Below, in pieces: positions 10,316 through 10,726 of a DNA stretch of 44,807 bases. The position numbers and the translations under genes are program-made. The first letter of the stretch is position 1. Every line of letters begins with the position of its first letter. Source of the stretch: a virus (taxonomy: Duplodnaviria; Heunggongvirae; Uroviricota; Caudoviricetes); the IMG/VR virus record IMGVR_UViG_2541047834_000005, positions 1-44,807 of that record; one strand, written 5' to 3'. The notes below the pieces were generated by a model. That model was not told the DNA's origin. It worked only from the letters and a program-made list of their open reading frames with translations, and did not search any database.

Positions 10316-10726
10316 GTCCCATATTTATTATCAGTAGTAATATTTACTGGTAACGATAAAGGCTCTAATTCTTCATACTCATCCGATACGGAAGCTGCGG
10401 CACCGCAAAAAGAAATCTACAACACTACTGCTCGACAGCTGTTTAAAGAGTATGAAGAAAATGAAGTCGCTACCGATGAACAGTTAAAAGGTAAATTAAT
10501 CGCCGTTAGAGGTATCGTACAATCCATTGATAAGGACTTTACTGACTCTATAATTATTAAATTCAGAACTGAAAATGAATTCATGCCAGCAAGAATGGAG
10601 ATGCAAGACTCTGAAAAATCAACAGCTGCTGCTCTTAAAAAAGGAGAACAAGTAACTGTTATTTGCGGAAAAATGTCCAGAATTGTCGGCTCCCCATCAG
10701 GCCGAAATTGCGTGTTCGCACAGTAA
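10316..10726 (+). pseudogene. Start-less OB-fold (tRNA_anti-like) lipoprotein remnant embedded in the tail operon
   Basis: Stop-to-stop frame encodes ...QLFKEYEENEVATDEQLKGKLIAVRGIVQSIDKDFTDSIIIKFRTENEF...KKGEQVTVICGKM..., but there is no ATG/GTG/TTG before codon ~90 and no lipobox Cys; AT-rich. Confidence 0.4.

What the first reader, a model, noticed from the sequence alone, without database searches (positions are those of the whole stretch)
10316..10726. Start-less OB-fold lipoprotein-like ORF inserted between the tape measure and Mu N-like genes
An AT-rich plus-strand open frame of ~136 codons encodes a domain resembling small OB-fold (tRNA_anti-like / BOF-type) periplasmic lipoproteins. 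It lacks any ATG/GTG/TTG before codon ~90 and lacks the lipobox Cys (..IFTGNDKG.. where LTGC would be expected). It looks like a decayed moron inside the tail operon, the position where HK97-type phages carry exclusion proteins.
Basis: partly seen in the sequence, partly recalled or inferred. Interest (0 to 1): 0.4.

Follow-up and report, generated by a model that had tools for sequence, protein, structure and literature searches.

The report
Deletion-truncated prophage OB-fold moron pseudogene
The start-less open frame is the dead 3' remnant of an accessory prophage gene for a membrane-anchored, periplasm-facing OB-fold protein; a 142-bp deletion removed its expression signals, start codon and membrane anchor, so it is an ordinary case of gene decay.

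Summary
Window 10316-10726 (+) is open for 136 codons, has no ATG/GTG/TTG before codon 90, and matches Pfam PF12869 (tRNA_anti-like OB fold, E=1e-16).

The cause is a clean 142-bp deletion with its junction at 10350/10351. Other E. coli carry the intact 148-aa gene in the same slot, between the tape-measure gene and the Mu N-like gene of an SfV/SfII-like prophage. The deletion removed the ribosome-binding site, the ATG, the first 24 codons (the membrane anchor) and probably the promoter. Only codons 25-148 (10352-10726) and the terminator remain.

The intact protein is not a lipoprotein. It has an uncleaved N-terminal helix, a Ser/Thr-rich linker and an OB domain with two invariant cysteines.

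About 16 of 72 carrier records in complete E. coli genomes have this deletion, including strain 042. RefSeq annotates the remnant as a CDS with an ATA start, which is probably wrong.

The intact family matches PHROG 8545 ("Sie-like"). It repeatedly sits directly behind prophage repressor genes, or antisense beside tape-measure genes. That suggests a lysogen-expressed envelope function, plausibly superinfection exclusion, but this is untested.

Interest is low.

The parts
10352..10726 (+). 3' remnant of the OB-fold moron gene: codons 25-148 of the 148-aa protein plus the stop codon. This is a pseudogene. It carries one extra non-synonymous change, GAA->GGA at 10668 (E130G).
   Evidence: The alignment to the intact STEC388 allele is identical apart from the deletion and 2 nt. 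Pfam PF12869 E=1.1e-16. PHROG 8545 E=5e-41 for the remnant.
10316..10351 (+). Twelve open codons (VPYLLSVVIFTG) that are former 5' non-coding DNA of the moron. This stretch contains the ATA at 10340 that RefSeq uses as a start codon.
   Evidence: In the intact allele the same bases lie 72-110 nt upstream of the ATG. The PGAP CDS runs from 10340 to 10726.
10350..10351 (.). Junction of the 142-bp deletion. The TAA at 10351-10353 is a 3-nt microhomology, so the breakpoint is ambiguous by 3 nt.
   Evidence: Alignments. The same junction string is found in E. coli 042, SCU-482 and four IMG/VR contigs.
10730..10760 (+). Intrinsic-terminator-like hairpin (9 bp, 7 G-C) followed by a T-rich tail, belonging to the moron. 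It was retained.
   Evidence: It is also present in the divergent PE15 allele.
10758..12590 (-). Tail tape measure gene. Its last ~8 codons differ from those of empty-slot alleles, so the right edge of the cassette lies inside them.
8986..10311 (-). Mu N-like 'DNA circularization' tail gene. The left edge of the cassette lies directly upstream of its ATG.

Best explanation
The open frame is an inactivated gene remnant.

The ancestral unit was a ~590-bp AT-rich moron, inserted antisense between the tape-measure gene and the Mu N-like gene of an SfV/SfI/SfII-like prophage. That prophage is lambdoid, has a Mu-like contractile tail, carries gtr serotype-conversion genes, and is integrated between ybhB and ybhC. 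The moron encoded a 148-aa protein with three parts: an N-terminal K-rich segment plus one hydrophobic helix (residues 3-22), a disordered Ser/Thr-rich linker (24-39), and a C-terminal OB-fold domain (45-148) with two invariant cysteines.

A single 142-bp deletion at a TAA microhomology removed the Shine-Dalgarno sequence (AAGGTGA), the ATG and codons 1-24. It probably also removed the promoter. That left codons 25-148 and the terminator.

Shown: the deletion, its content, its identity across strains, and the family and fold of the protein.

Inferred:
(a) The remnant is neither transcribed nor translated to any useful level. Even if it were made, the product could not reach the periplasm.
(b) The intact protein is a type II (N-in, C-out) inner-membrane protein whose OB domain faces the periplasm.
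(c) It is expressed from the prophage and acts at the envelope. The most likely role (about 40-45%) is superinfection exclusion, blocking DNA entry or the incoming tail tip. Its loss is tolerated because it is an accessory gene.
For: Lesion:
- The window aligned to STEC388 differs by one 142-bp gap plus 2 nt.
- The intact ORF L002:1723-2169 gives MKKLLKWILYIFIGLVIIGYFAGNNDKG....
- The N-terminus is conserved in 45 homologues from Buttiauxella, Pantoea, Serratia, Erwinia and others, so the long form is ancestral.
- dN/dS between two intact E. coli alleles is about 0.04.

Distribution:
- 72 of 5426 complete E. coli genomes carry the cassette and 56-58 carry the 142-bp segment.
- 16 records have the deletion in a single aligned piece, including Sanger-finished strain 042. 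This rules out an assembly artefact.
- The same junction occurs in prophages with three different early regions.

Moron status:
- 36-38% G+C against 52-61% in the flanks.
- The slot is empty in SfI/SfII/SfV and in most of the ~1093 E. coli genomes with this tail module.
- A plus-strand terminator is present.

Fold:
- AlphaFold2 mean pLDDT 86, about 97 for the domain.

Extracytoplasmic topology:
- Three Lys residues precede the helix.
- Relatives have true lipoboxes (P0068, P0077) or a cytoplasmic Zn-ribbon plus one TM helix (P0081).
- C129 and C144 are invariant.
- TcdC, which is PF12869-related, has its OB domain outside the cell (PMC3575817; bioRxiv 10.1101/872283).

Lysogen-expressed or exclusion role:
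- PHROG 8545 'superinfection exclusion Sie-like', E=1.5e-49 over the full length.
- In 15 IMG/VR loci a CI-type repressor is the directly upstream co-oriented gene (mostly -4 to +27 nt away; three loci lie 51-169 nt away). In 8 more loci it lies two genes upstream. The same arrangement is seen in Burkholderia phage Carl1.
- Antisense insertion next to tape-measure genes occurs in three other tail types.
- The alternative cassettes in the same slot also encode envelope-targeted proteins: a TM-anchored 176-aa protein and a 225-aa lipoprotein.
Against: - The remnant is still an uninterrupted frame, and RefSeq annotates it as a normal CDS with an ATA start (WP_071593209.1, WP_071821387.1).
- Absence of expression was not measured.
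- The consensus scan found no promoter in the deleted segment. The only candidate is a TGnCATAAT / TGnTATAAA motif, conserved between two divergent alleles and found by eye.
- No experimental evidence for exclusion exists for any member. PADLOC gave no hit and NCBIfam gave only one weak sub-cutoff match (TIGR02830, E=0.06). No paper in the library links PF12869 proteins to exclusion.
- The PHROG label is an annotation of unknown origin.
- Some relatives lie in chromosomal islets that are not obviously prophages.
Confidence: 0.85

Rival explanations
1. The frame is a functional gene translated from the non-canonical ATA at 10340, as in RefSeq. It would give a 128-aa cytoplasmic OB-fold protein.
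For: PGAP calls it a CDS, not a pseudogene. The frame is intact in all deletion carriers examined. Two otherwise intact alleles (L041, L043) carry ATA in place of the real ATG, so ATA starts may be tolerated in this gene.
Against: - The ATA at 10340 lies in what is non-coding DNA in the intact allele.
- No Shine-Dalgarno-like sequence is visible directly upstream of it (CATATTTATTATCAGTAGTA), and no promoter-like site was found upstream.
- The product would lack the anchor that is conserved, in one form or another, in all 45 homologues, and could not be exported.
- An intact frame is expected for a young lesion: only 0-1 further substitutions in 376 nt.
- From general knowledge, not tested here: ATA initiates at roughly 1% or less of ATG efficiency in E. 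coli.
Confidence: 0.06
2. The remnant expresses only a 47-aa C-terminal peptide (ATG 10583 to 10726) from the internal promoter-like site at 10527-10554.
For: TTGATA-16-TATAAT matches 11 of 12 consensus positions and lies 29 nt upstream of the ATG. The terminator lies downstream.
Against: - The site lies inside the coding sequence of the intact allele too.
- AT-rich DNA yields such matches by chance: 1.5 expected per region at the scan threshold.
- There is no Shine-Dalgarno sequence before ATG 10583.
- The peptide would be the last three strands of an OB barrel and is unlikely to fold.
Confidence: 0.03
3. The pseudogene reading holds, but the intact family is not an exclusion protein. It would be another lysogenic-conversion or envelope factor: a periplasmic ligand or heme-type carrier like CcmE, a stress protein, or a TcdC-like regulator.
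For: - No member has a demonstrated exclusion phenotype, and PADLOC gave no hit.
- TcdC, which is PF12869-related, is linked to toxin regulation.
- Several relatives lie in chromosomal islets.
- The gene decays repeatedly in E. coli.
Against: - The PHROG 8545 label.
- Repeated operonic linkage to CI repressors, and antisense placement beside tape-measure genes.
- One locus lies next to an OLD-like ATPase plus a UvrD-like helicase, a Gabija-like pair.
- These placements are typical of exclusion and defence genes, but they are also compatible with other lysogen-expressed functions.
Confidence: 0.4
4. The intact protein is an abortive-infection protein like lactococcal AbiP or staphylococcal PdpSau. 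It would be membrane-anchored, with the OB domain in the cytoplasm binding phage nucleic acid.
For: Membrane anchor plus OB-like domain is the architecture reported for AbiP and cited for PdpSau (PMC10127798). The best fold matches other than 3F1Z are nucleic-acid-binding OB domains.
Against: - The positive charges lie N-terminal of the helix.
- Lipobox-bearing relatives must be exported.
- The variant with a Zn-ribbon plus a single TM helix places the OB domain outside.
- Two cysteines are invariant.
- Net charge of the domain is about neutral: median +1, and -1 in E. coli.
- The TcdC OB domain is extracellular.
Confidence: 0.05

Closest known systems
Pfam PF12869 tRNA_anti-like; crystal structure 3F1Z (Klebsiella pneumoniae 'putative nucleic acid-binding lipoprotein')
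   Different: Only 16-18% identity. A profile search against PDB sequences finds nothing. 3F1Z is described as a lipoprotein, whereas the E. coli prophage protein has a non-lipobox signal anchor. The window copy is truncated.
PHROG 8545 'superinfection exclusion Sie-like'
   Same: Full-length match for the intact protein (E=1.5e-49). The remnant also matches (E=5e-41).
   Different: The label is an annotation and its experimental basis could not be traced here. The window copy lacks profile positions 14-41, which cover the anchor.
HK97 gp15 moron (inner-membrane superinfection exclusion protein)
   Same: A small membrane protein encoded by an AT-shifted moron inside a tail operon next to the tape-measure gene. 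It is expressed from the prophage, and its exclusion depends on the tail of the incoming phage (PMC3594210).
   Different: HK97 gene 15 lies upstream of the tape-measure gene, between the chaperone and tape-measure genes. No OB domain is reported for it. A sequence relationship was not tested. The gene here is antisense to the tail operon.
Clostridioides difficile TcdC and its homologues in Lactobacillus and Leuconostoc temperate phages
   Same: N-terminal membrane anchor plus a C-terminal OB domain related to PF12869 by HHpred (PMC3575817). The OB domain was shown to be extracellular (10.1101/872283). The phage homologues sit between the CI repressor and integrase genes, like many relatives found here.
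   Different: TcdC has a coiled-coil dimerisation segment and comes from a Gram-positive organism. It is discussed as a toxin regulator. A direct comparison with the E. coli protein was not run.
CcmE (E. coli heme chaperone)
   Different: No sequence relationship was detected. CcmE belongs to a housekeeping cytochrome c maturation operon, not to a phage.

Membership tests
Pfam PF12869 (tRNA_anti-like OB fold) | Match to the family HMM above the curated gathering score | tested here: met
   Remnant: 61.1 bits against a cut-off of 23.5, E=1.1e-16. Intact orthologue: 69.3 bits.
Pfam PF12869 (tRNA_anti-like OB fold) | Five-stranded OB barrel | tested here: met
BOF / YgiW-YdeI family (PF04076) | Match to the BOF HMM | tested here: not met
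   A Pfam scan at E<=10 returns only PF12869 and one sub-threshold KOW hit.
Bacterial lipoprotein | Lipobox L-[AS]-[GA]-C at the end of the signal peptide | tested here: not met
   The N-terminus of the intact orthologue, MKKLLKWILYIFIGLVIIGYFAGNNDKG, has no Cys. The same holds for most homologues. Only P0068 (LISGC) and P0077 (LTAC) have a lipobox.
Moron (Hendrix/Juhala sense) | An insertion between genes that are adjacent in related phages, with deviating base composition | tested here: met
   The slot is about 60 bp in SfI/SfII/SfV and in most E. coli prophages of this type. G+C is 36-38% against 52-61%.
Moron (Hendrix/Juhala sense) | Own terminator | tested here: met
   A 9-bp hairpin with a T-rich tail on the plus strand at 10730-10760. 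This is a pattern match only.
Moron (Hendrix/Juhala sense) | Own promoter, and expression from the repressed prophage | tested here: inconclusive
   No consensus promoter hit upstream of the intact ATG. A conserved TGnCATAAT/TGnTATAAA motif was seen by eye in two divergent alleles. Expression cannot be tested with these tools.
Pseudogene (5'-truncated) | Loss of the start codon, ribosome-binding site and N-terminal coding sequence relative to intact orthologues under purifying selection | tested here: met
   The 142-bp deletion. The intact N-terminus is conserved in 45 homologues. dN/dS is about 0.04 between intact alleles.
Superinfection exclusion proteins (functional class; PHROG 8545 label) | Sequence membership in PHROG 8545 | tested here: met
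   E=1.5e-49, covering positions 14-176 of the 177-position profile.
Superinfection exclusion proteins (functional class; PHROG 8545 label) | Blocks infection by other phages when expressed from a prophage | not testable with these tools
   Only contextual support is available: linkage to repressor operons and to tail-module morons. PADLOC gave no hit, and no literature was found.
HK97 gp15 family | Sequence similarity to gp15 | not tested
The position differs: gene 15 lies upstream of the tape-measure gene.

The most novel reading that the evidence does not exclude
The intact relatives may form an uncharacterised and widespread class of temperate-phage exclusion proteins. In this reading an OB-fold domain is tethered to the outer face of the inner membrane by a signal anchor, a lipid anchor or a Zn-ribbon plus TM helix. 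It is co-transcribed with the CI repressor or carried as an antisense moron beside the tape-measure gene. It would intercept the incoming tail tip, tape-measure protein or DNA in the periplasm. The class would be related to the enigmatic TcdC of C. difficile. The window then shows only a dead copy, one of at least three independent lesions of this gene in E. coli.
Probability: 0.4. Interest if true: 0.5.

Novelty: new member of a known kind. Interest (0 to 1): 0.2.

Why it matters
For this window, very little: it is a decaying accessory gene.

There are two practical points. First, RefSeq proteins WP_071593209.1 and WP_071821387.1 (128 aa, ATA start) are most likely annotation artefacts of a truncated gene and should be flagged as pseudogenes. 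Second, the slot between the tape-measure and N genes of SfV-like prophages is a polymorphic cargo site. It holds at least three unrelated envelope-targeted cassettes, and two of them also occur as truncated relics.

The PF12869 membrane-tethered OB-fold family shows a consistent association with prophage repressor operons. That makes the intact allele (e.g. WP_096129238.1) a cheap and well-defined candidate for testing a new exclusion mechanism. It could also shed light on the disputed role of TcdC.

Tried and rejected
- PADLOC scan of the intact protein: no hit. NCBIfam scan: only one sub-cutoff match, TIGR02830, E=0.06.
- Sequence and profile searches against PDB chains: only chance matches, or none.
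- Rfam scan of 10150-10900: a single sub-threshold MALAT1 match, dismissed as chance.
- Consensus promoter scan upstream of the intact ATG: nothing.
- tblastn against 50,697 phage records: only two distant hits, Burkholderia phage Carl1 and Klebsiella phage ST405-OXA48phi1.2.
- Search for the window's own genome among complete E. coli genomes: the early region matches at most 65%, so the source strain was not identified. SCU-482 and 042 share only the structural half.
- Foldseek against afdb50: the library was unavailable.
- Literature searches for 'Sie-like', PF12869 and OB-fold plus exclusion: no functional study of this family other than TcdC.
- Assembly artefact: rejected. The same junction occurs in at least 9 independent strains, including Sanger-finished 042.
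- The 142 bp being an insertion in the long allele: rejected. The long N-terminus is conserved across genera.
- Distance between the two invariant cysteines in the model: could not be measured because no coordinates were accessible.

Full report
**Observation.** The plus-strand frame opens after the TAA at 10313-10315 and closes at the TAA at 10724-10726, giving 136 codons. The ORF lister, which starts at the first ATG/GTG/TTG after a stop, reports only a 47-aa ORF from ATG 10583 in this frame, so the first canonical start is codon 90. With the local base composition, a stop-free run of 136 codons has a probability of about 6e-5. The translation matches Pfam PF12869 (tRNA_anti-like) at E=1.1e-16, 61 bits against a cut-off of 23.5. 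G+C is 36-38% here against 52-61% in the flanks. The flanking genes on the minus strand are a tape-measure gene (10758-12590) and a Mu N-like 'DNA circularization protein' gene (8986-10311).

**The lesion.**
- A 661-bp query around the frame found 70 complete E. coli genomes covering it. The 16 best hits were in one piece. The listed two-piece hits spanned 142 bp more.
- In strain STEC388 the gene is annotated as a 148-aa 'OB-fold protein'.
- The alignment shows that the window differs by one clean 142-bp gap between ACTGG and TAACGA, at window 10350/10351. TAA is a 3-nt microhomology at the junction.
- The missing segment contains 72 nt of upstream DNA with the Shine-Dalgarno sequence AAGGTGA, the ATG, and codons 1-24 (MKKLLKWILYIFIGLVIIGYFAGN).
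- The authentic coding remnant is therefore 10352-10726 (codons 25-148). The twelve codons before it (VPYLLSVVIFTG) are former non-coding DNA that happens to be open.
- The long form is ancestral. Its N-terminus is conserved in homologues from Buttiauxella, Scandinavium, Pantoea, Serratia, Erwinia and Pectobacterium. Two intact E. coli alleles that are 72% identical give dN/dS of about 0.04, with saturated synonymous sites.

**Distribution.**
- Of 5426 complete E. coli genomes, 72 carry the cassette and 56-58 carry the 142-bp segment.
- Sixteen records have the deletion, representing about nine distinct strains. They include the Sanger-finished EAEC strain 042.
- The junction string is identical in 042, SCU-482 and four IMG/VR contigs.
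- The window, SCU-482 and 042 share the structural half of the prophage at about 99% identity but have different early regions. The deleted allele has therefore persisted through mosaic exchange.
- The window and most deletion carriers have one further change, GAA->GGA (E130G) at 10668. This change is absent from 042 and from the two intact alleles compared directly.
- RefSeq annotates the remnant as a normal CDS starting at the ATA at 10340. That ATA lies in former non-coding DNA, has no recognisable Shine-Dalgarno sequence before it, and would give a protein without its anchor. I regard this as an annotation artefact.

**Context.**
- The window is a complete prophage between ybhB and ybhC. 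It has gtrA/gtrB and a gtr-specific gene at the left end (926-3674), an HK97-type head, a Mu-like contractile tail and lambdoid early genes.
- The tail module is 95-97% identical to Shigella phages SfI, SfII and SfV. In these phages the slot between the tape-measure and N genes is only about 60 bp.
- About 1093 E. coli genomes have this tail module, and in the 60-record sample listed the slot was most often empty.
- Other genomes carry unrelated cassettes on the tail-gene strand:
  - a 176-aa protein with an N-terminal TM helix (phrog_5485);
  - a 79-aa truncated relic of that protein;
  - a 225-aa lipoprotein with an LLGGC lipobox (phrog_1353);
  - a divergent 150-aa OB-fold allele, antisense like the one here.
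- The cassette replaces the intergenic region and the last codons of the tape-measure gene.
- It keeps a plus-strand terminator hairpin at 10730-10760.
- This fits the definition of a moron in composition, presence/absence polymorphism and terminator. The promoter was not detected by the consensus scan. The only candidate is a TGnCATAAT/TGnTATAAA motif conserved between the two divergent alleles, at the left edge of the deleted segment.

**The protein.**
- An AlphaFold2 model of the intact protein, built from 45 aligned homologues, has mean pLDDT 86. It shows a helix at 3-22, a disordered Ser/Thr-rich linker at 24-39, and an OB barrel at 45-148 with pLDDT about 97.
- Invariant residues include C129 and C144.
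- Most family members start with MKKxxKW followed by a hydrophobic helix and have no lipobox. Two (P0068, P0077) have true lipoboxes. Several have an N-terminal zinc ribbon followed by one TM helix.
- All three anchor types place the OB domain outside the cytoplasmic membrane. This agrees with the positive-inside rule and the conserved cysteine pair.
- It also agrees with published work on TcdC. The TcdC OB domain is related to PF12869 by HHpred (PMC3575817) and was shown to be extracellular (bioRxiv 10.1101/872283).
- The domain is roughly neutral: net charge -1 in E. coli, family median +1. This does not favour strong DNA binding.
- No BOF (PF04076) match was found.

**Function of the intact gene.**
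- The intact protein matches PHROG 8545, labelled 'superinfection exclusion Sie-like', over its full length (E=1.5e-49). PADLOC gave nothing and NCBIfam gave only one sub-cutoff match (TIGR02830, E=0.06).
- IMG/VR holds 102 viral contigs with a relative. A neighbour census with Pfam checks on 64 of 80 loci gave two recurrent settings:
  - Antisense insertion beside the tape-measure gene: 21 intact SfV-type loci (the 4 deleted SfV-type loci, L044-L047, were not among the 64), a P2-like tail between gpU and gpD, a contig where it sits between chaperone-like ORFs and the tape-measure gene, and a Klebsiella phage where it sits among baseplate genes.
  - Immediately downstream of, and co-oriented with, the prophage repressor. 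The repressor is either PF07022+PF16452 CI or HTH+Peptidase_S24. Gaps are mostly -4 to +27 nt in 15 loci (three loci lie 51-169 nt away), and the repressor is two genes away in 8 more. The same arrangement is seen in Burkholderia phage Carl1.
- One locus abuts an OLD-like ATPase plus a UvrD-like helicase.
- The TcdC paper notes homologues between cI and int in Lactobacillus and Leuconostoc phages.
- These are the classic positions of genes expressed from a repressed prophage. HK97 gene 15, the archetypal moron next to a tape-measure gene, encodes an inner-membrane exclusion protein whose effect depends on the incoming tail (PMC3594210).
- I therefore infer a lysogen-expressed envelope function. 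Superinfection exclusion is the single most likely role (about 40-45%). No experiment supports it, and the searchable literature has no study of this family besides TcdC.

**Why the copy is dead, and how sure.**
- The deletion removes every element needed for expression and export.
- The remnant shows the first sign of drift (E130G).
- The gene also decays in other ways in E. coli. Two IMG/VR alleles have ATG->ATA at the true start. A cluster of eight sequences carries a C-terminal frameshift that loses C144 (P0002).
- I put the pseudogene reading at about 0.85-0.9.
- The residual alternatives are weak translation from the ATA at 10340 (about 0.06) and a 47-aa peptide from an internal promoter-like site at 10527-10554 (about 0.03).
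- Expression data for strain 042 would settle this.

**Verdict.** The finding is real and the 'decayed moron' reading is right. The 'lipoprotein', 'BOF' and exact 'HK97 position' details are not. It is an ordinary case of accessory-gene decay in an SfV-like prophage, and interest is low (0.2). The more interesting lead is the intact family itself.

Noticed in passing
Slot equivalent to window 10312-10757 in other E. coli genomes: L005, L006, L007, L008, L009, L010: The slot between the tape-measure and N genes of SfV-like prophages is a polymorphic cargo site. It can be empty (~60 bp) or hold a 176-aa TM-anchored protein (phrog_5485), a 79-aa truncated relic of that protein overlapping the end of the tape-measure gene (L007), a 225-aa lipoprotein with an LLGGC lipobox (phrog_1353), or a divergent OB-fold allele. 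All full-length cargo proteins are envelope-targeted.
   Followed up: partly
L041:6001-6003 and L043:6001-6003 (IMG/VR contigs); protein P0002: These are independent lesions of the same gene. The true start codon is ATG->ATA, with an intact Shine-Dalgarno sequence, in two otherwise intact alleles. A C-terminal frameshift variant (161 aa, 8 member sequences) loses the second invariant cysteine.
   Followed up: partly
window 10527-10554 (+): A near-consensus sigma-70-like site, TTGATA-16-TATAAT (11 of 12), lies inside the OB coding sequence, 29 nt upstream of the internal ATG at 10583. It is also present in the intact allele. It is probably a chance match in AT-rich DNA.
   Followed up: no
window 10340-10726; RefSeq WP_071593209.1 and WP_071821387.1: PGAP annotates the truncated remnant as an ordinary 128-aa CDS starting at an ATA codon that lies in former non-coding DNA. 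This is likely a mis-annotated pseudogene.
   Followed up: yes
L005:631-652 (-), the empty-slot allele; also annotated as 'terminator' in phage SfII: Empty-slot prophages have an intrinsic-terminator-like hairpin with a T-run on the tail-gene strand, between the tape-measure and N genes, that is, inside the tail operon. In cassette-bearing alleles it is replaced. The cassette's own hairpin has no T-run on that strand in the window.
   Followed up: partly
window 23035-42020 compared with L017 (SCU-482) and L018 (042): The structural half of the prophage (window 1-23034) is about 99% identical to those of SCU-482 and 042. The early and regulatory half is a different mosaic in each. No complete E. 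coli genome in the collection covers more than 65% of the window's early region.
   Followed up: partly
window 926-3674 (+): There is an apparently intact gtrA (926-1288), gtrB (1285-2202) and a 491-aa gtr-type-specific ORF (2199-3674) at the prophage end next to ybhB. This is an O-antigen glucosylation (serotype-conversion) module, itself a receptor-modifying exclusion function. In SCU-482 the third gene is split into two ORFs.
   Followed up: no
L091:6486-10081 (-): In one IMG/VR prophage the OB-fold gene lies convergent to an OLD-like ATPase/TOPRIM protein plus a UvrD-like helicase (a Gabija-like pair). This places it in a defence-gene neighbourhood.
   Followed up: no
L011-L013 and L021 (Pantoea/Erwinia-type contigs): Relatives of the OB-fold gene also occur in a small variable islet downstream of copC-copD-yebY, next to an integrase fragment and a WapI-like immunity gene. 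This is probably a degraded integrated element.
   Followed up: no
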